Under the pieces are notes generated by a model. That model searched no databases, had not been told where the DNA came from, and was given only the letters and a program-made list of their open reading frames with translations. DNA of 55,212 nt from Candidatus Parcubacteria bacterium (GTDB lineage: Bacteria > Patescibacteriota > Patescibacteriia > Patescibacteriales > Patescibacteriaceae), in the NCBI GenBank assembly GCA_023459655.1, contig JAEWTE010000040.1, positions 1 through 55,212 on the forward strand, given 5' to 3'. A program made the translations under genes and the position numbers. Each line of letters begins with the position of its first letter. The first letter of the stretch is position 1. Of this stretch, positions 2,876-43,030 are shown piece after piece.

Positions 2876-4237
2876 ATGATGATTAAAAGAATCAATAAAT
2901 TAAGGAATAAAAAATTACTGCTTGGCTTATTGTTGTTAGCAATCACCCTAATATTATTATTTTTATTGTGGTTATTATTTGAGGTGAAATCAATTAGACT
3001 GACCGATAATCGTCAGTCTAGTCGGCCAATTAGTAAATCTACGATTAATTCAATAATTACTCCGTCGCCTAATAGTAATAAAGAGCGCTCGGCTAGTTTT
3101 ACTGACCTATTTTCTGGTTCGGCTTGGCTGGATAAAAATCGAACTAGTTTGTTCCATAATTTTTCTAGTATGACTTTGTCATTTCCTCCAGATATTCATT
3201 GGGAATTGACTGGGTCTTGTTTAGATAATTATGATGCTTGTCAGGCAATTGATCGTTCAATTGATCAACAGTCAACTTGTATTGATGGACGATGTTTAGT
3301 TATGGTTGATGATAATTTAGTTTACCAGGGCCAAACATTAGCTTGGCCAACAGCCATTAACGAGATAGTTGATAGCACTATTTCTACTTTTGATAATCGT
3401 TGGTTAGTTGGTATTGTTGATAATTTCCAACCAGAGCAATATCGAATATCAGTTTGGTGGTTTGATGGTCAGGATTTTCAGCCGATTATTTTGTCAGATA
3501 ATAGTGAAGAACCAATTATTAGTCATTATCGAGGCCGTCTGGCAGTTGGTGGTCAAGCGGATAATCTACTTATTTTATATAGTGCTTATAATGGCCTGGC
3601 TTGGCAGGTTCGAGGATCACAATTTAAAGATTTAAGCTATTATTTTGGTATCAGAGTCAATTATAATGGTTTTTGGCCAGGAATTATTAGTTATCAGTAT
3701 AATGGTGAAACAAAATGGTTAGTGTTTGATCGTAGCCAATCTCGACCAATTTTATTAAAGTTTTGGCAAAACGGCTCGGATTGGATTGAGGGTACGCTGG
3801 ATCTATCTGACCAATTACCGGATAATAGTCGCACAGCGATTGTAGCGACTGACAAATTATTGGATAATTTTAAAATCAAGATTAATGATTTAACCGATAC
3901 AGCTTATCTTTGGCAGATGGTTGATCAAGGGTTTATTTTGCCGACTAGTTCGGCCGAGGTTATTTCGATTAATTTATCCAATTATAATCAAAAACCTCAG
4001 ACTAGCACTATTGGGGCTATAATTACTGAAGTTATTGGTGGCTGGTCTGGTTTTGATAATTCATGGTTTTTATCGACCGATGGGGTTAATTGGCAAACTG
4101 TTCAGCTAAATCAACGATTTAATTTTGATCAGCCAATTGGAAAATTATGGTGGCGTTGGCAAGTTAACCCAAAGACTAATCGTCAGCATTCGCCTTGTTT
4201 GAAAAAAATTGTGTTTTATTTTTATTCCCAGCCGTAG
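2876..4237 (+). CDS. Hypothetical membrane-anchored protein (N-terminal TM, large extracytoplasmic domain, one Asp-box-like motif)
   Basis: ATG at 2876 lies 7 nt after TATAAT (2863-2868). The GTG at 2852 used by the track would lie inside the hairpin and promoter. TM helix LLLGLLLLAITLILLFLLWLLF. Motif STDGVNWQTV near the C-terminus. No family recognised. Confidence 0.6.
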   Translation: MMIKRINKLRNKKLLLGLLLLAITLILLFLLWLLFEVKSIRLTDNRQSSRPISKSTINSIITPSPNSNKERSASFTDLFSGSAWLDKNRTSLFHNFSSMTLSFPPDIHWELTGSCLDNYDACQAIDRSIDQQSTCIDGRCLVMVDDNLVYQGQTLAWPTAINEIVDSTISTFDNRWLVGIVDNFQPEQYRISVWWFDGQDFQPIILSDNSEEPIISHYRGRLAVGGQADNLLILYSAYNGLAWQVRGSQFKDLSYYFGIRVNYNGFWPGIISYQYNGETKWLVFDRSQSRPILLKFWQNGSDWIEGTLDLSDQLPDNSRTAIVATDKLLDNFKIKINDLTDTAYLWQMVDQGFILPTSSAEVISINLSNYNQKPQTSTIGAIITEVIGGWSGFDNSWFLSTDGVNWQTVQLNQRFNFDQPIGKLWWRWQVNPKTNRQHSPCLKKIVFYFYSQP

Positions 4238-24064: not shown

Positions 24065-24145
24065 AATCAATAGGCTCTTGTTGGTTCAGGTTGGCTTATG
24101 CTATACTAAAACTATACTTTAATTTTGCTAATCAGTCAAAATATC

Positions 24146-38146: not shown

Positions 38147-38195
38147 TAACTACATTTTGTGGATAAGCAATTAGTTTTAACACAATATGTAGTTT
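38147..38195 (+). promoter_or_regulatory. Pair of NrdR-box-like operators
   Basis: Box 2 acacaatatgtagttt (38180-38195) matches the published NrdR box acaCwAtATaTwGtgt at about 14 of 16 positions. Box 1 (38147-38162, core actacattttgtgg) is close to the reverse complement of box 2. Centres are ~31-33 bp apart. Confidence 0.6.
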
Positions 38196-38207: not shown

Positions 38208-38663
38208 ATGAAATGTCCGATTTGTTATCATTCTGAGACCAAGGTGGTGGACTCGCGAGTCGCTAGTGACGGCTTGTCGATTCGCCGCCGCCGCGAATGT
38301 TTAAAATGCAGTTTTCGTTTTTCTACTTATGAAGAAACAGAAATTCTGGACTTATTAATAGCTAAACGCAATGGTCATAAGGAGGCGTATAGTCGAGATA
38401 AAATGATTTGTGGCTTGCGCAAAGCTACTGAGAAGCGACCGATTAACAGTGATCAATTTAAGCGGCTAGTCAATTTAATTGAGCGAGATATTCAGGCCAA
38501 GCGTCAAAGTGAAATTGATAGTCAAGATATTGGTCGGATTGTTATGCGTCACTTAAAAAAAATCGACAAAGTTGCTTACATTCGTTTTGCTAGTGTTTAT
38601 TCTGATTTCGAGTTGCAAGATTTAAGTCAAGAATTAAACCGGCTACTTAAATTAAAAAATTAA
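38208..38663 (+). CDS. nrdR: Transcriptional repressor NrdR (zinc ribbon plus ATP-cone)
   Basis: MKCPICYHSETKVVDSR...RRRRECLKCSFRFSTYE. Confidence 0.93.
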   Translation: MKCPICYHSETKVVDSRVASDGLSIRRRRECLKCSFRFSTYEETEILDLLIAKRNGHKEAYSRDKMICGLRKATEKRPINSDQFKRLVNLIERDIQAKRQSEIDSQDIGRIVMRHLKKIDKVAYIRFASVYSDFELQDLSQELNRLLKLKN

Positions 38664-38675
38664 AACTTAAGTTTT

Positions 38676-40718
38676 ATGAGTCAAGGTATTAGCAAAATTT
38701 GTAAGCGTTCGGGGGAAATAGTTGATTTTGATCAAGTTAAAATTTTTACCGCAATTAATAAGGCAATGATTGCTGCTGGCCAACCAGACGAAGTCAGAGC
38801 TCAAGTTATTGCTGACGAGGTTATTAAATTGATTAATCAAAAATTTCATGCTCGTAGTATTCCAGCGGTTGAAGAAGTTCAAGATACAGTTGAAGAAGCC
38901 TTGATTAATAATCGTTTAATTAAAGTAGCCAAGGGCTATATTTTGTATCGTGATCAACATGCTCGTTTGCGCAATCTTTCTTTGATGATTGATTCAGAAA
39001 AGATCATGGATGATTATTTAAAACAAACTGATTGGCGAGTTAAAGAAAACTCTAATATGAGTTTTAGCTTGCAGGGTTTAAATAATCATCTAGCTTCAAT
39101 TATTTCATCAACTTACTGGTTAAATAAAGTTTATGATGCGCCAATCCGTGATGCTCATCAAAATGGTGATTTTCATTTGCACGATTTACAGATTTTAGCG
39201 GCTTATTGTGCTGGTTGGGATATTAAAGATTTATTATTAAAGGGATTTGGTGGAGTTGGTGGCAAGGTTGAATCCAAACCACCAAAGCATTTTAGAACCG
39301 CTCTAGGGCAGATAACTAATTTCTTTTATACTGTTCAAGGTGAAGTAGCTGGAGCCCAAGCTTTTTCTAGTTTTGATACTTATTTGGCGCCTTTTATCCG
39401 CTATGACAAACTGACCTATGCTGAAGTCAAGCAGGCCATGCAAGAGTTTCTTTATAATGTTAATGTGCCCACTAGAGTTGGTTTTCAAACACCGTTTACC
39501 AATATTACAATGGATTTAAGACCATCTAAATCATTGGGTGAAGAAAATGTTATTATTGGTGGTGAATTGAAGGCGGAGCGATATCAAGATTTTCAACCGG
39601 AAATGGATATGCTTAATATTGCCTTTGCTGAATTAATGATGGAAGGTGATGCCAAGGGGCGAGTATTTTCTTTTCCAATTCCAACCTATAATATTACCAA
39701 AAATTTTGAATGGGATTCGTCGGTGGCTGACAAGATTTTTGAGATGACTCGCAAGTATGGTATTCCCTATTTTTCTAATTTTATTAATTCTGACATGGAT
39801 CCAGATGATGCTAGGTCAATGTGCTGTCGTTTGCGGTTAGATAATCGTGAATTACGCAAGCGTGGCGGTGGTCTATTTGGAGCCAATCCATTAACTGGAT
39901 CAATTGGTGTAGTGACTATTAATTTGCCGCGGATTGGTTATTTGAGCCAAACCAAAGAAGAATTCTTTGAACGATTAGCTAGTTTGATGAGATTGGCACG
40001 AGAGAGCCTGGAGGTTAAACGAGAGATTATTGAAAAATTAACCGAAGGCGGACTCTATCCTTATGCTCGTCATTATTTAGAGGGTATCAAGGAGCGGTTT
40101 GGTGGTTATTGGAATAATCATTTTGGAACTATCGGTTTGGTTGGTATGAATGAAGCCTTGATTAATTTTGCGCCAATTGCTAGCGACATTGCTAGTCCAG
40201 CTGGCCATCAATTTGCTGAAGAAATTCTAGAGTTTATGCGTGAAACCCTGGGTAAATTTCAGGAAGAAACCAATCATTTGTATAATCTAGAAGCGACTCC
40301 AGCTGAAGGTACTTCCCGGCGTTTGGCTCGGCTGGATCGCGATCTTTATCCAAATATTAAGGTGGCCAATAGCTCTAATCCAGAACAAGCTCCATTTTAT
40401 ACCAATTCAACCCAATTACCGGTTAATTTTACTAGTGATATTTTTGAAGCTTTGGAATTACAAGATAGTCTGCAAACCAGATATACTGGTGGCACGGTTT
40501 TACATTTTTTCTTAGGTGAGTCTTTGCCAAGTTCTTCAGCTGTTCGTACATTAGTCCGTAAAATTGCCGAAAATTATCATTTACCATATTTTACGATTAC
40601 CCCAACTTTTTCAGTTTGTCCTAAACATGGCTATATTGCTGGTGAACATCCTTATTGTCCCAAATGTGATGAAGAGATTGGCTATCATCCTGAGCCTGGT
40701 TTGGCTCGAACTATTTAG
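38676..40718 (+). CDS. nrdD: Anaerobic (class III) ribonucleoside-triphosphate reductase, large fragment lacking the glycyl-radical loop
   Basis: N-terminal ATP-cone, then a class III core (thiyl-radical loop region DDARSMCCRLRLD..., LYNLEATPAEG, FYTNSTQLP). Ends after the Zn-ribbon TFSVCPKHGYIAGEHPYCPKCDEE at TAG 40716-40718. Confidence 0.85.
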   Translation: MSQGISKICKRSGEIVDFDQVKIFTAINKAMIAAGQPDEVRAQVIADEVIKLINQKFHARSIPAVEEVQDTVEEALINNRLIKVAKGYILYRDQHARLRNLSLMIDSEKIMDDYLKQTDWRVKENSNMSFSLQGLNNHLASIISSTYWLNKVYDAPIRDAHQNGDFHLHDLQILAAYCAGWDIKDLLLKGFGGVGGKVESKPPKHFRTALGQITNFFYTVQGEVAGAQAFSSFDTYLAPFIRYDKLTYAEVKQAMQEFLYNVNVPTRVGFQTPFTNITMDLRPSKSLGEENVIIGGELKAERYQDFQPEMDMLNIAFAELMMEGDAKGRVFSFPIPTYNITKNFEWDSSVADKIFEMTRKYGIPYFSNFINSDMDPDDARSMCCRLRLDNRELRKRGGGLFGANPLTGSIGVVTINLPRIGYLSQTKEEFFERLASLMRLARESLEVKREIIEKLTEGGLYPYARHYLEGIKERFGGYWNNHFGTIGLVGMNEALINFAPIASDIASPAGHQFAEEILEFMRETLGKFQEETNHLYNLEATPAEGTSRRLARLDRDLYPNIKVANSSNPEQAPFYTNSTQLPVNFTSDIFEALELQDSLQTRYTGGTVLHFFLGESLPSSSAVRTLVRKIAENYHLPYFTITPTFSVCPKHGYIAGEHPYCPKCDEEIGYHPEPGLARTI

Positions 40719-40742
40719 CTATTAATTATTTAATTTTATTTT

Positions 40743-40901
40743 ATGTCCCCTTTAGAAACCCAACGCACTCCTTGTGAAGTTTATAGCCGCGTAACTGGTT
40801 ATTTACGACCAGTTAAACAATGGAATGATGCTAAGCAAGCTGAATTTGCTAATCGTCAAACCTTTGTAGTTGGTGATGAATCAGCTGGTTGTGATTGTTA
40901 G
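40743..40901 (+). CDS. Stand-alone 52-aa glycyl-radical domain of NrdD (not in the ORF track)
   Basis: MSPLETQRTPCEVYSRVTGYLRPVKQWNDAKQAEFANRQTF... carries the canonical NrdD C-terminal radical motif (RV.GY.RPV..WN..K..EF..R). It is in the same frame as nrdD, but two stops separate them (TAG 40716, TAA 40731). Confidence 0.7.
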   Translation: MSPLETQRTPCEVYSRVTGYLRPVKQWNDAKQAEFANRQTFVVGDESAGCDC

Positions 40902-40910
40902 TCATAGTTC

Positions 40911-41642
40911 ATGATTATTGGCGGGTTACAACCGATTAGTTTATTAGATTATCCTGATAAATTAGCGGCAATAATTTTTACCCAAGGTTGTAATTTTCAG
41001 TGTCGATATTGTTATAATCCCATGCTTGTCCGGCCGGCAACGGCTGGTGCCACAAATACCACAGGTCAGCCAGCTTATTCGCTGGCTGACCTGTGGGCGT
41101 TTTTAGATCAACGGCAAGGCCGTCTCGAAGCAGTGGTAATCACTGGTGGTGAACCAACTTTGCATCGCGATTTACCAGAATTTATTGCCGAAATAAAACG
41201 GCGCGATTTATTAGTTAAATTAGATACCAATGGCACAAACAGTCAAATGGCTAAACAGTTAGTGCAAGATGGTTTAATTGATTATTTAGCTATGGATATT
41301 AAAGCTCCCTGGGATAAATATGGGCAGATTATGTCTTTGCCGGATGATATTTTAAACCGATTAACCAAGGAGTCTAGAACAACAGCTGAATGGTTAATTG
41401 CCGATAAACCGCTTGATTATGAATTTCGAACCACAGTTATTCCAAAATTAACAACAATACTAGATATTCAATTAATGGCCGAACAATTAGTTGGGGCCCG
41501 ACTATGGTATTTGCAAAAGGGTCGATTGACCGGTGATTTACTCGATACCAGTTTAATTGGTGGACAAACTTATACCGATGCTGAAATGGCTGAATTATTG
41601 GTCTTAGCTCAAGCTAAGGTACCGACTGCTCAAGTTCGTTAA
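40911..41642 (+). CDS. nrdG: Anaerobic ribonucleotide reductase activating protein (radical SAM)
   Basis: ISLLDYPDKLAAIIFTQGCNFQCRYCYNP (CX3CX2C) and VVITGGEPTL. Confidence 0.88.
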   Translation: MIIGGLQPISLLDYPDKLAAIIFTQGCNFQCRYCYNPMLVRPATAGATNTTGQPAYSLADLWAFLDQRQGRLEAVVITGGEPTLHRDLPEFIAEIKRRDLLVKLDTNGTNSQMAKQLVQDGLIDYLAMDIKAPWDKYGQIMSLPDDILNRLTKESRTTAEWLIADKPLDYEFRTTVIPKLTTILDIQLMAEQLVGARLWYLQKGRLTGDLLDTSLIGGQTYTDAEMAELLVLAQAKVPTAQVR

Positions 41643-41701: not shown

Positions 41702-41917
41702 ATGGATGAAGATTTAAGGCGTATTTTAGCTGAACAAGCCGCAGCTATTGCTGAAATTAGAGAAAATTCTCGATTGACCTATAAATATATTCGTCGTCAG
41801 CGCCTGTGGGGATGGATTAAATTAATCATCATCATCATTCCATTGATTGCCAGTATAATTTATTTACCACCGCTATTAAAAGATTTATTTGATTTGTATA
41901 AATCTAATTTATGTTAG
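41702..41917 (+). CDS. Small membrane protein (71 aa, one TM)
   Basis: Amphipathic N-terminus followed by WIKLIIIIIPLIASIIYLPPLL. Its own promoter-like element lies upstream. Overlaps the prfB start by 7 nt. Confidence 0.45.
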   Translation: MDEDLRRILAEQAAAIAEIRENSRLTYKYIRRQRLWGWIKLIIIIIPLIASIIYLPPLLKDLFDLYKSNLC

Positions 41918-43030
41918 AAACAATTAATAATCAGACTTTTGAGGCGATGCGTCAGCGCCTTCTAGAAATTGGGAGGTGGCTTTGACCTAGCTACTAAGCA
42001 ACGACAATTAGCTATCTTACAAGAAAATGCTCAGGCAACTGATTTGTGGTCTGATCCAGAACAAGCTGGGCAATTATTAAAAAAAATTGAAGCTATCCAA
42101 ACTGAGATTAATGATTACCAAGCGGTATTGCAGAGGTTGGATGATTTAACCGAGTTAGTAATTGCTGGTCAGACCGATGCAATGGCGGCTGACTTGGTTC
42201 AAAATGAATTAGAACAATTGTCTCAAATTTTAGATCAATTAGAAAATAGTCGTTTTTTTGATCAACCGCATGATGATTTGCCGGTTATTTTATCTATTCA
42301 TGCTGGTACCGGTGGGGTTGATGCTCAAGATTGGGCGGCGATGTTGGAGCGATTATATTTGCGTTACGCTGATCGACAGGGTTGGTCTAGTCGGATTATA
42401 GATGAACAGCTTGGTAATGAGGCTGGCATTAAAAGTGCTACTTTACGTTTAGTCGGACCATTAGCTTATGGTTATCTGCGTGGTGAAGGTGGTACTCATC
42501 GGTTATTGCGTAATTCGCCTTTTAATGCTCAGCATTTGCGTCAAACTTCTTTTGCTATGGTCGAAATTTTACCTGAATTGCCAATTAGTCAAGCACCGGT
42601 TATTGCTGATAATGATTTACAAGTTGATGTTTTTCGATCTTCTGGTCCGGGTGGCCAGGGGGTCAATACGACTGATTCAGCAGTTCGTTTAACTCATCTG
42701 CCAACTGGTTTAGTGGTAAGTTGTCAAAGTGAGCGCTCACAGCATCAAAACAAGGCCCTAGCTTTAGTGGTTTTACAATCAAAATTGGCTCAACGACAAG
42801 TTGAAGAATTAAATCAGCAAAAACAAGCACTCAAAGGTCAGCAAATCAAGGCTGATTGGGGTTTGCAGATTAGATCATATTTTTTATATGGTAGTCAGAT
42901 TGTTAAGGATCATCGGACCAATATTAGCACCAGTGATATTGCTGGAGTTTTTGATGGTAATTTGGATTGTTTTTTAAAAGCTTATTGGCTTTGGGATTGG
43001 CAGCGTCGTCAGGTTGAAAAATCTGATTAA
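41911..43030 (+). CDS. prfB: Peptide chain release factor 2, requiring a programmed +1 frameshift at CTT TGA C (41980-41986)
   Basis: Frame 0 reads MLETINNQTFEAMRQRLLEIGRWL, then TGA at 41983. GGGAGG (41971-41976) lies 3 nt before CTT. The +1 frame continues DLATKQRQL... with SPF (NSPFNAQ) and GGQ (SSGPGGQGVN). Confidence 0.93.

What the first reader, a model, noticed from the sequence alone, without database searches (positions are those of the whole stretch)
38676..40901. Class III ribonucleotide reductase split into a 680-aa body and a separately encoded 52-aa glycyl-radical peptide
In known NrdD enzymes, the Zn-ribbon (C..HGY...CP.C) and the glycyl-radical loop (EVYSRV.GY.RPV..WN.GK..EF) are the last ~60 residues of one polypeptide.

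Here the large ORF stops at TAG 40716-40718, directly after YCPKCDEE. The radical loop (EVYSRVTGYLRPVKQWNDAKQAEF) begins a new ORF with its own ATG at 40743. That ORF is missing from the supplied track because it is shorter than 60 aa.

The two pieces are in the same frame. The 24-nt spacer carries a second in-frame stop (TAA 40731) and has the same AT-rich ...ttttATG context as other gene starts in this window. A single-codon readthrough or recoding event therefore cannot explain it.

nrdR (with NrdR boxes) and nrdG are intact on either side, which argues that the locus is functional.

A radical domain supplied in trans would be conceptually analogous to the GrcA/YfiD spare-part protein of pyruvate formate-lyase. 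It could allow replacement of an oxygen-cleaved radical domain. I do not know of this being described for NrdD.
Basis: partly seen in the sequence, partly recalled or inferred. Interest (0 to 1): 0.72.

Follow-up and report, generated by a model that had tools for sequence, protein, structure and literature searches.

The report
Two-piece anaerobic ribonucleotide reductase
In this uncultured bacterium the enzyme that makes DNA building blocks without oxygen is encoded in two pieces, a 680-residue body and a separate 52-residue peptide carrying the radical glycine. The same arrangement is conserved across many small-genome bacteria, archaea and viruses, and I found no published description of it.

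Summary
nrdD stops at TAG 40716-40718, a second in-frame TAA lies at 40731-40733, and a 52-aa ORF (40743-40901) carries the glycyl-radical loop. One detail is wrong: the body runs 13 residues past YCPKCDEE.

It is not an assembly error or a pseudogene:
- The identical gene pair occurs in four independent samples.
- All 120 closest body homologues lack the Gly loop.
- 149 of the 150 best peptide-family clusters are stand-alone proteins of 48-159 aa.
- 30 of 80 related species loci are split, with gaps from -4 to 355 nt in all three frames, often with their own ribosome-binding site. The order nrdR-body-peptide-nrdG is kept wherever the flanks are held.
- The peptide is under strong purifying selection (pN/pS 0.04).
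- A sister Patescibacteria clade has the same residues in one chain.

The best reading is a two-polypeptide class III reductase whose radical domain docks non-covalently. That the split serves oxygen-damage replacement is an inference.

Orphan peptides of the same type, with no body or activase nearby, occur in Desulfobacterota and in phage contigs. The published archaeal virus ANMV-1 also carries one, and no body or activase anywhere in its genome.

No description was found in the literature searched; a 2026 review says spare-part proteins are known only for formate lyases.

The parts
38150..38192 (.). Two NrdR-box-like inverted copies of CTACATWTTGTG (38150-38161 on +, 38181-38192 on -), 31 bp apart, upstream of nrdR.
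   Evidence: two exact matches. With one mismatch allowed the window holds 3 matches against 0.76 expected. Sequence read.
38208..38663 (+). nrdR, 151 aa (Zn-ribbon plus ATP-cone repressor).
   Evidence: PF22811, E 2e-20; PF03477, E 1.3e-17.
38676..40718 (+). nrdD body, 680 aa. It holds the ATP-cone (residues 7-96), the catalytic barrel with the finger-loop motif RSMCCRL (C383, C384), and the complete Zn ribbon. It has no glycyl-radical loop.
   Evidence: PF13597 600.6 bits, protein 124-666 to profile 1-529 of 562; NF006126 1041 bits, profile 3-650 of 684; family-invariant residues are retained.
40617..40667 (+). Zn-ribbon knuckles C648-P-K-H651 ... C661-P-K-C664, all in the body.
   Evidence: Position 651 is His in most relatives and Cys in Elusimicrobia (CPKCGY...CPKC), as expected of a metal ligand. 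That these residues bind metal is inferred.
40668..40715 (+). Body tail DEEIGYHPEPGLARTI, specific to split enzymes. D-[EQ]-E-[IL]-G-[YF] follows CPxC in nearly all of 119 split bodies.
   Evidence: D 119/119, G 113/119. Unsplit relatives read CPxC-(3-5 aa)-CEVYSRVVGY instead.
40716..40742 (+). TAG stop of the body plus the 24-nt AT-rich spacer, which carries a second in-frame TAA at 40731-40733.
   Evidence: The spacer is identical in four independent assemblies (L001-L004).
40743..40901 (+). 52-aa glycyl-radical peptide MSPLETQRTPCEVYSRVTGYLRPVKQWNDAKQAEFANRQTFVVGDESAGCDC. The radical glycine is G19 (codon 40797-40799).
   Evidence: NRDD profile 531-562 of 562. (17 invariant columns, G19 among them). 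(pN/pS 0.043). (hairpin with the Gly at its tip in the model).
40911..41642 (+). nrdG, 243 aa, radical-SAM activase.
   Evidence: TIGR02495 NrdG2, 178.7 bits (cut-off 131.15). PF04055.

Best explanation
This is a naturally split class III (anaerobic) ribonucleotide reductase. The 680-aa body supplies the ATP-cone, the catalytic barrel with the finger-loop cysteines, and the whole Zn ribbon. The 52-aa peptide is translated from its own start codon and supplies the glycyl-radical hairpin (RVTG19Y) and the short helix that follows it.

Shown: there are two ORFs, both are conserved, and each is translated independently in relatives.

Inferred:
- The peptide inserts non-covalently into the barrel, in the position the C-terminal radical domain occupies in one-chain NrdD.
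- NrdG abstracts the hydrogen from G19, either on the free peptide or while the peptide is swung out of the barrel.
- The radical then passes to the finger-loop cysteine for nucleotide reduction.
- The split-specific body tail (DEEIGY..., plus a C-terminal [ED]R[DEN][IL]I.A[LM]A motif in many relatives) and the conserved peptide N-terminus (MSPIxTKR) probably act as docking handles.

A likely but unproven consequence follows. Oxygen is known to cleave NrdD at the glycyl radical (from my own knowledge, not checked here). After such a hit, only the small peptide would need replacing, so it would work as an exchangeable radical cartridge. Orphan genes for the same kind of peptide in phages and in Desulfobacterota suggest the peptide can act in trans.
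For: Not an artefact:
- The identical body and 52-aa gene pair occurs in 4 independent samples.
- The exact peptide is recorded on 48 contigs.

Conserved as two genes:
- The 120 best body homologues (70-91% identity) all lack the Gly loop.
- The 120 listed peptide hits (of 143 found) are 41-84 aa.
- In a library clustered at 50% identity, 149 of the best 150 hits are 48-159 aa, and nearly all begin with Met.
- 30 of 80 species-representative loci are split. The 26 measured gaps run from -4 to 355 nt, in frame relations 0, 1 and 2, using TAA, TAG or TGA. Several have AGGAGG-type sites before the peptide ATG.
- The order body-peptide-nrdG, preceded by nrdR where present, is kept.

Selection:
- Against L005, the peptide core has pS 0.69 and pN 0.03 (ratio 0.043), stricter than the last 200 codons of the body (0.135).
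- 17 columns of the peptide alignment are invariant, the radical Gly among them.

Completeness:
- Body and peptide tile NF006126 positions 3-650 and 650-682.
- An unsplit sister clade of Patescibacteria (119 of 120 hits) reads CPKC-xIEQP-CEVYSRVVGY in one chain.

Structure:
- AlphaFold2 on body plus peptide joined as one chain gave pLDDT 81.8 and pTM 0.78. The peptide forms a beta hairpin (692-697 and 700-703) with G699 at the tip, then a helix (709-717), at pLDDT about 81. The junction (673-685) is disordered.
- The best structural matches are NrdD structures.

Action in trans:
- Orphan peptides with no body or NrdG within 4 kb occur in 3 Desulfobacterota loci and in 64 of 80 viral loci.
- In two phage loci the peptide gene lies between the terminase and portal genes.
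- The ANMV-1 virus genome, described by its authors as complete, has only a 144-aa radical-domain protein.
Against: - There is no biochemical, transcript or proteomic evidence. Assembly of the two chains, activation by NrdG and enzyme activity are all inferred.
- The structure model was forced to be one chain and used unsplit homologues as its alignment. It cannot test non-covalent binding, and no coordinates were available to measure distances.
- The window's spacer has no ribosome-binding site. This is normal for the genome, but it leaves the mode of initiation open.
- Whether this genome has another reductase could not be checked.
- Net charge of the body tail and of the peptide N-terminus correlate only weakly (rho -0.34, p 0.08, no correction for relatedness).
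- The 80 loci were ranked by similarity to the peptide, so 30 of 80 is not an unbiased frequency.
Confidence: 0.85

Rival explanations
1. The split is a neutral 'gene in pieces'. An insertion or rearrangement at a structurally permissive hinge, between the Zn ribbon and the mobile radical loop, was fixed by drift and later became irreversible. The enzyme works as two chains, but the split brings no benefit such as a replaceable cartridge.
For: - The break always falls at or near the same hinge, which is where the radical domain must swing out in one-chain enzymes.
- Spacers are highly variable and carry hairpins or small inserts. L008 has a 34-nt hairpin that L007 lacks, although the two encode identical tail and peptide sequences. 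L013 has a 355-nt spacer.
- Split RNR genes without any known benefit are recorded in phages (PMC3653736).
Against: - The split recurs in lineages with different junction sequences: Patescibacteria, Elusimicrobia, DPANN archaea and viruses.
- Split-specific motifs on both sides of the break are conserved.
- Orphan peptide genes are maintained in phages and Desulfobacterota, which is hard to explain unless the peptide has value in trans.
Confidence: 0.3
2. One full-length chain is made after all, by recoding: stop-codon readthrough, ribosomal bypass of the spacer, or protein splicing or ligation.
For: In this window the two ORFs are in the same frame and only 24 nt apart.
Against: - There are two in-frame stops in the window.
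- In relatives the gap ranges from a 4-nt overlap to 355 nt, in all three frames, with TAA, TAG or TGA.
- The peptide's Met and N-terminal residues are conserved.
- All three stop codons are in use as stops, and RF2 carries its UGA frameshift site.
- Body tails as short as 10-16 residues leave no room for an intein, and no intron-sized sequence is present.
Confidence: 0.02
3. It is an assembly or sequencing error, or a decaying pseudogene.
For: None beyond the unusual appearance.
Against: - Identical sequence in four independent assemblies, and the peptide on 48 contigs.
- 120 of 120 relatives are split.
- pN/pS is 0.04 for the peptide and 0.135 for the body.
- The body keeps all family-invariant residues.
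Confidence: 0.01
4. The small protein is chiefly a regulator or decoy. It competes for NrdG or plugs the barrel, so as to tune or, in phages, to hijack or block host dNTP synthesis. It is not simply the catalytic radical carrier.
For: - Orphan copies sit in phages without a body or activase.
- A GRD-less body could be switched on or off by the supply of peptide.
Against: - In the window's clade the body has no other source of a glycyl radical, so the peptide must at least be the radical carrier if the enzyme works at all.
- Every residue of the canonical radical motif is invariant, which a decoy would not need.
Confidence: 0.07

Closest known systems
One-chain class III ribonucleotide reductase NrdD (phage T4, E. 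coli, Thermotoga maritima, Prevotella copri; PDB 1H79, 4COI/4U3E, 8P23)
   Same: Same family by sequence profile and by predicted fold. It has the ATP-cone, the barrel, the finger-loop cysteines, the Zn ribbon, the RVxGY radical loop, an adjacent NrdG activase and NrdR control.
   Different: In every characterised NrdD the radical loop is the last 40-60 residues of the same polypeptide. Here it is a separate 52-aa gene product, and the body ends in a tail found only in split enzymes.
GrcA/YfiD of E. coli and Y06I of phage T4: autonomous glycyl-radical 'spare part' proteins for pyruvate formate-lyase
   Same: A small stand-alone protein that consists essentially of a glycyl-radical domain and is thought to act in trans on a large barrel protein. 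There is a phage-encoded version too: Y06I for PFL, and the orphan peptides found here for the NrdD type.
   Different: - GrcA is homologous to the PFL C-terminus, whereas this peptide is homologous to the NrdD C-terminus.
- GrcA rescues an enzyme that has its own radical domain. Here the adjacent body has none, so the peptide is obligatory.
- A 2026 review states that formate lyases are the only GRE class with known spare-part proteins (PMC13450708).
Split class II reductase NrdJa/NrdJb (Pseudomonas aeruginosa), and phage RNR 'genes in pieces' (for example Aeromonas phage Aeh1 nrdA; split phage nrdD genes with introns or inteins)
   Same: An RNR catalytic subunit encoded as two adjacent ORFs that together cover the full-length homologue (PMC9669993; PMC3653736).
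   Different: - NrdJb carries folded accessory domains, not the radical-bearing element.
- The phage cases are interrupted by introns, inteins or homing endonucleases, or look degenerate.
- Here a short non-coding spacer cleanly releases the radical loop as a peptide of about 50 aa, and this is conserved across a large clade.
Small subunits of other glycyl-radical enzymes (benzylsuccinate synthase beta and gamma, 4-hydroxyphenylacetate decarboxylase gamma); this row is from my own knowledge, not tested here
   Same: A glycyl-radical enzyme built from a large barrel subunit plus one or more small subunits.
   Different: Those small subunits carry Fe-S clusters or have structural roles. The radical glycine stays on the large subunit.

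Membership tests
Class III RNR catalytic subunit NrdD (Pfam PF13597; NCBIfam NF006126/TIGR02487) | Match to the family profile above the curated cut-off | tested here: met
   Body: PF13597 600.6 bits (cut-off 26.2); NF006126 1041.3 bits (cut-off 548); TIGR02487 515 bits (cut-off 326).
Class III RNR catalytic subunit NrdD (Pfam PF13597; NCBIfam NF006126/TIGR02487) | Finger-loop cysteine(s) that carry the thiyl radical | tested here: met
   R380-S-M-C383-C384-R-L is invariant across the split and unsplit homologues aligned.
Class III RNR catalytic subunit NrdD (Pfam PF13597; NCBIfam NF006126/TIGR02487) | C-terminal Zn ribbon with four Cys/His ligands | tested here: met
   C648-x2-H651 ... C661-x2-C664 lies in the body. 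Position 651 alternates between His and Cys among relatives. Metal binding itself was not tested.
Class III RNR catalytic subunit NrdD (Pfam PF13597; NCBIfam NF006126/TIGR02487) | Glycyl-radical motif RVxGY at the C-terminus of the same polypeptide | tested here: not met
   The body ends at profile position 650 of 684 without the motif. The motif (RVTG19Y) lies on the separate 52-aa ORF. The feature is met for the gene pair but not for either chain alone.
Class III RNR catalytic subunit NrdD (Pfam PF13597; NCBIfam NF006126/TIGR02487) | Cognate radical-SAM activase NrdG encoded alongside | tested here: met
   TIGR02495 NrdG2, 178.7 bits (cut-off 131.15), 9 nt after the peptide's stop codon. nrdG follows the peptide gene in every split locus.
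Class III RNR catalytic subunit NrdD (Pfam PF13597; NCBIfam NF006126/TIGR02487) | Glycyl radical formation and NTP reduction | not testable with these tools
   Needs EPR and activity assays.
GrcA/YfiD-type spare-part protein | Homology to the PFL-type glycyl-radical domain (Pfam Gly_radical) | tested here: not met
   The Pfam scan of the peptide returns only PF13597 NRDD.
GrcA/YfiD-type spare-part protein | Small autonomous protein consisting essentially of a glycyl-radical domain | tested here: met
   52 aa with its own ATG. A family of stand-alone homologues of 41-159 aa exists.
GrcA/YfiD-type spare-part protein | Backs up a full-length enzyme that has its own radical domain | tested here: not met
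   The adjacent body has no radical loop. The rest of the genome could not be searched. The orphan versions in Desulfobacterota and viruses might meet this feature, but that is untested.
GrcA/YfiD-type spare-part protein | Restores activity to the oxygen-cleaved enzyme | not testable with these tools
   Requires biochemistry.
Split RNR genes caused by mobile elements (intron, intein or homing endonuclease) | An intervening intron, intein or endonuclease gene, or a recognisable remnant of one | tested here: not met
   The spacer is 24 nt in the window. In relatives the gap runs from a 4-nt overlap to 355 nt, with no endonuclease- or intein-sized ORF. The shortest body tails are 10-16 aa.
Programmed recoding (readthrough or bypass) | Fixed frame relation and conserved recoding signals across relatives | tested here: not met
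   Frame differences of 0, 1 and 2; all three stop codons; spacers that cannot be aligned.

The most novel reading that the evidence does not exclude
NrdD-type glycyl-radical peptides may be a widespread, unrecognised family of exchangeable radical cartridges that act in trans on class III reductase bodies. They are encoded in three settings:
- Next to radical-domain-less bodies in Patescibacteria, DPANN archaea, Elusimicrobia and some phages.
- As orphans, with their own Zn ribbon, in Desulfobacterota.
- As orphans in phages and in the archaeal virus ANMV-1. These would plug into, repair or take over the host's anaerobic dNTP synthesis.

This would be the class III RNR counterpart of GrcA/Y06I. 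It would also be the first glycyl-radical enzyme whose radical cofactor is by design a separate polypeptide.
Probability: 0.4. Interest if true: 0.9.

Novelty: new variant of a known kind. Interest (0 to 1): 0.78.

Why it matters
Glycyl-radical enzymes are thought to keep their radical on a C-terminal domain of the catalytic chain, which must swing out to meet the activase and back in to work. A natural enzyme in which that domain is a free 50-residue peptide would open three questions to direct test.

1. It gives a handle on activation. Does NrdG act on the free peptide? How is the radical protected during docking?
2. It would extend the spare-part idea from pyruvate formate-lyase to ribonucleotide reduction, an essential step in DNA synthesis. 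The organisms concerned have tiny genomes and live at oxic-anoxic boundaries.
3. The viral orphan peptides would be a very small auxiliary gene for taking over host nucleotide supply.

It also corrects annotation. Thousands of 45-160-aa proteins are labelled 'anaerobic ribonucleoside-triphosphate reductase' or 'hypothetical'. At least one published virus genome was read as encoding an RNR when it encodes only the radical domain (PMC4372165).

Tried and rejected
- A sequence search of the PDB with the last 104 residues (body end plus peptide) found nothing. The full joined sequence was needed.
- A first alignment that included split bodies (A2) misaligned the body's ...EIGY with the radical loop ...VVGY of unsplit enzymes. 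It was rebuilt without them (A3).
- That misalignment raised the idea that the body tail is a relic of a duplicated radical loop. I could not test it, and the DNA shows no convincing similarity.
- I considered whether the peptide's conserved Cys11 is the fourth zinc ligand, bridging the two chains. I rejected this as unlikely. The body already has C-x2-[H/C]...C-x2-C, and the position is Ala, Thr or Asp in some relatives.
- Charge complementarity between body tails and peptide N-termini was inconclusive (rho -0.34, p 0.08).
- To ask whether orphan viral peptides have a body elsewhere on the same contig, I scanned the viral collection with the body. Only 80 of 275 hits are listed, so the test is incomplete. 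Among those listed, only unsplit contigs overlap.
- Literature searches for any description of a split NrdD or a stand-alone NrdD radical peptide found none. The library lacks most subscription-journal papers.
- No other RNR was found among the nine largest ORFs of the window. The rest of the genome could not be searched.
Full report
**1. What is in the sequence**

- A 680-aa ORF (38676-40718) ends at TAG 40716-40718.
- A 24-nt AT-rich spacer follows, with a second in-frame stop (TAA 40731-40733).
- A 52-aa ORF starts at ATG 40743 and ends at 40901, in the same frame as the body.
- nrdG follows at 40911-41642, and nrdR precedes at 38208-38663.

One detail is wrong. After YCPKCDEE the body continues for 13 residues (IGYHPEPGLARTI) before the stop.

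The body scores 1041 bits against NCBIfam NF006126, covering profile positions 3-650 of 684. The peptide matches positions 650-682 of the same profile, and the last 32 positions of Pfam NRDD (E 3.2e-10). Together the two ORFs make one complete NrdD, interrupted by about 31 extra codons.

Other points that bear on the reading:
- Two inverted NrdR-box-like copies of CTACATWTTGTG lie 31 bp apart just upstream of nrdR.
- This genome hardly uses Shine-Dalgarno sites (1 of 33 starts). The peptide's ...TTTT ATG context is therefore ordinary here.
- TAA, TAG and TGA all serve as stops (23, 7 and 3 genes). prfB carries the classical CTT TGA C frameshift site. A changed genetic code is not the explanation.

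**2. Not an error and not decay**

- The identical 680-aa gene, followed by the 52-aa gene and nrdG, was assembled in four independent samples.
- The exact peptide is on record from 48 contigs. Close variants are deposited under names such as 'anaerobic ribonucleoside-triphosphate reductase' or 'hypothetical protein [Candidatus Falkowbacteria bacterium]'.
- Against the nearest species-level relative (L005), synonymous sites in the peptide core are nearly saturated (pS 0.69) while non-synonymous change is 0.03. The ratio is 0.043, stricter than the last 200 codons of the body (0.135). The tail and spacer DNA differ freely.

**3. The split defines a large clade and recurs elsewhere**

- A search with the peptide found 143 proteins. 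The 120 listed are all 41-84 aa. An alignment of 28 of them has 17 invariant columns, the radical glycine among them, and a conserved start MSPIxTKR.
- A search with the body returned 120 best hits at 70-91% identity. None has a Gly loop.
- A profile search of 1.84 billion cluster representatives gave 4698 hits. Of the best 150, 149 are 48-159 aa, and nearly all begin with Met.
- A scan of one genome per species returned 80 loci, of which 30 are split.
  - In 26 loci the gap could be measured. It runs from a 4-nt overlap to 355 nt, the two ORFs stand in all three frame relations, and all three stop codons are used.
  - Several loci have clear AGGAGG-type sites in front of the peptide's ATG.
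  - Wherever the flanks are held, the order is body-peptide-nrdG, preceded by nrdR where present.
- These facts rule out readthrough, bypass or splicing as general mechanisms. They show two independently translated products.
- Split loci come from Patescibacteria (Falkowbacteria, Parcubacteria, Saccharibacteria), DPANN archaea, a Thermoplasmatota MAG, Elusimicrobia and Hippea.
- A sister clade of Patescibacteria (Portnoy-, Nealson- and Pacebacteria) is unsplit in 119 of 120 hits. It reads CPKC-xIEQP-CEVYSRVVGY in one chain.
- In a rough neighbour-joining tree the Patescibacteria split clade is monophyletic, next to this unsplit clade. Other split lineages are scattered among unsplit ones and have different junction sequences. 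This points to several split events or to transfer. The tree is indicative only.

**4. Anatomy of the break**

- The break falls after the second Zn-ribbon knuckle and before the strand that leads into the radical hairpin.
- The Zn ribbon (C648-x2-H651...C661-x2-C664) lies wholly in the body. Position 651 is Cys in Elusimicrobia, as expected of a ligand.
- Split bodies carry a tail that unsplit enzymes lack.
  - An almost invariant D-[EQ]-E-[IL]-G-[YF] comes right after CPxC.
  - A variable, mostly acidic linker follows.
  - In many relatives the tail ends in [ED]R[DEN][IL]I.A[LM]A.
- In Elusimicrobia both the body tail and the peptide's N-terminal extension look like heptad-rich helices.
- I read these as docking handles, which is inference. 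A simple test for charge complementarity was not significant.

**5. Structure**

- AlphaFold2 was run on body and peptide joined as one chain, with unsplit homologues as the alignment. It gave pLDDT 81.8 and pTM 0.78.
- Residues 692-697 and 700-703 form a hairpin with G699 (peptide G19) at its tip, followed by a helix at 709-717, at pLDDT about 81. The junction (673-685) is disordered.
- The best structural matches are the NrdD structures of P. copri, S. thermophilus, T. maritima and T4.
- This shows the peptide is compatible with the canonical radical-domain position. It does not test non-covalent binding, and no coordinates were available.

**6. Orphan relatives, found while following the family**

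- Three Desulfobacterota loci encode proteins of about 115-120 aa with their own Zn ribbon (CHDC...KCDAC) and the same Gly loop. No NrdD body or NrdG lies within 4 kb.
- In the viral collection, 64 of the 80 best loci carry a stand-alone Gly-loop ORF of 41-157 aa with no body or NrdG within 4 kb.
  - In two of these loci the gene sits between the large terminase and a P22-like portal gene.
  - Another lies in a phage-like region with no body within 10 kb.
  - Some viral peptides keep the Patescibacteria-type start MSPIKTKRQEC.
- Ten of 80 viral NrdD loci have bodies that stop after the Zn ribbon. In three of them the peptide ORF lies within the 500 nt held downstream.
- The archaeal virus ANMV-1 was published as a complete genome. 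It encodes only a 144-aa protein of this kind, and tblastn finds no body or NrdG anywhere in the record. The paper took this protein to be an oxygen-sensitive ribonucleotide reductase (PMC4372165).
- PHROGs has no family of its own for these peptides.

**7. Mechanism**

The best-supported reading (confidence 0.85) is a heteromeric class III reductase.
- The body provides allostery, the barrel, the thiyl cysteine and the Zn ribbon.
- The peptide provides the radical glycine and docks into the barrel.
- NrdG activates the peptide.

Shown: two conserved, separately translated genes that together make a complete NrdD. Inferred: assembly, activation and activity.

Why the split persists is less certain. 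The orphan genes in phages and Desulfobacterota favour a peptide that works in trans and can be exchanged, for instance after oxygen cleaves it at the radical. A neutral split at a permissive hinge remains a serious rival (about 0.3).

**8. Comparison with known systems, and novelty**

- By profile, fold and operon the pair is a member of the NrdD family. Neither chain alone meets the family's defining one-chain architecture.
- It works like GrcA/YfiD only by analogy. It is not homologous to GrcA, and here it is obligatory rather than a spare.
- Split RNRs are known: NrdJa/NrdJb, and phage genes broken by introns, inteins or endonucleases. None of them releases the radical-bearing element.
- Nine literature searches and the papers read turned up no description. 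A June 2026 review states that formate lyases are the only glycyl-radical enzymes with known spare-part proteins.
- The library misses most subscription-journal papers, so prior description cannot be excluded.
- I rate it a new variant of a known kind, of high interest to the ribonucleotide reductase and glycyl-radical fields.

Noticed in passing
L037 3773-4135; L068 3764-4123; L051 about 3770-4129: Desulfobacterota encode orphan proteins of about 115-120 aa. They have the N-terminal motif RLHxLFDENP, their own Zn ribbon (CHDC...KCDAC), and an NrdD-type Gly loop. No NrdD body or NrdG lies within 4 kb. These are candidates for a true GrcA-like spare part for class III RNR.
   Followed up: partly
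L085-L164 (IMG/VR); e.g. L102 3941-4141, L111 3941-4135, L088 3992-4144, L245 10001-10156: 64 of 80 viral loci carry stand-alone NrdD-type radical peptides of 41-157 aa with no body or activase nearby. In L102 and L111 the gene lies between the large terminase and a P22-like portal gene. One 90-kb contig carries two such genes (L091, L096).
   Followed up: partly
L246 3186-3620 (KP703175.1, ANMV-1 virus, AJP62049.1): The published complete ANMV-1 archaeal virus genome annotates a 144-aa Zn-ribbon plus Gly-loop protein as 'anaerobic ribonucleoside triphosphate reductase'. The paper inferred from it that the virus has an RNR. The record has no NrdD body and no NrdG.
   Followed up: yes
L187, L201, L224 (also L165, L173, L200, L213, L215, L218, L239): Some viral contigs carry split-type NrdD bodies that stop after the Zn ribbon. 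In L187, L201 and L224 a separate downstream peptide ORF is visible. In the other seven only 500 nt downstream are held and no Gly-loop ORF was seen.
   Followed up: partly
P0363 (92 aa): The N-terminus looks like ribosomal protein bL32 (MAVPKSKVSKQRGNTRFANWKL...CSQC...CPECGG). It runs straight into ECEVYSRIVGYIRPIKQWNKGKQAEF. This is either a chimeric gene call or a real fusion of a Zn ribbon to the radical loop.
   Followed up: no
window 40668-40715, and 119 homologous bodies (P0121-P0240): Split bodies share a tail with an invariant D-[EQ]-E-[IL]-G-[YF], a variable acidic linker, and a C-terminal [ED]R[DEN][IL]I.A[LM]A motif. MAFFT aligns the ...IGY with the radical ...VGY of unsplit enzymes, which raises the untested idea that it is a relic of a duplicated loop.
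   Followed up: partly
L007 vs L008, L011, L013-L016 (spacers between body and peptide): Spacers in relatives hold GC-rich hairpins and long inverted repeats. L008 has a 34-nt hairpin insert that L007 lacks, although their tail and peptide sequences are identical. The 355-nt spacer of L013 contains a small hydrophobic ORF. These could be small mobile inserts or signals that set the body-to-peptide ratio.
   Followed up: no
window 40881-40898 (peptide C-terminus ...SAGCDC): Cys-rich C-terminal tails (CDC, CGC, CPTC, CSCGCEC) recur on some peptides and on some unsplit NrdDs. They recall the redox-shuttle cysteine pairs at the C-termini of class I and II reductases.
   Followed up: no
window 41911-41986: prfB has the classical +1 frameshift site. 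The short ORF MLETINNQTFEAMRQRLLEIGRWL ends at CTT TGA C (41980-41986), preceded by GGGAGG. This is notable in a genome where only 1 of 33 gene starts has a Shine-Dalgarno-like motif.
   Followed up: partly
window 24125-32440: Two adjacent giant ORFs of 863 and 1904 aa carry Big_5, TIG and fn3 repeats. The larger has a T4SS-pilin-like N-terminus. They are probably surface or attachment proteins, as expected of an episymbiotic small-genome bacterium.
   Followed up: no
L075 (Syntrophomonas palmitatica JCM 14374): The nrdD reading frame is interrupted about 80 codons upstream of the Gly loop, not at the Zn-ribbon/Gly-loop junction. This is probably a frameshift or sequencing error in the draft genome rather than the split described here.
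   Followed up: no
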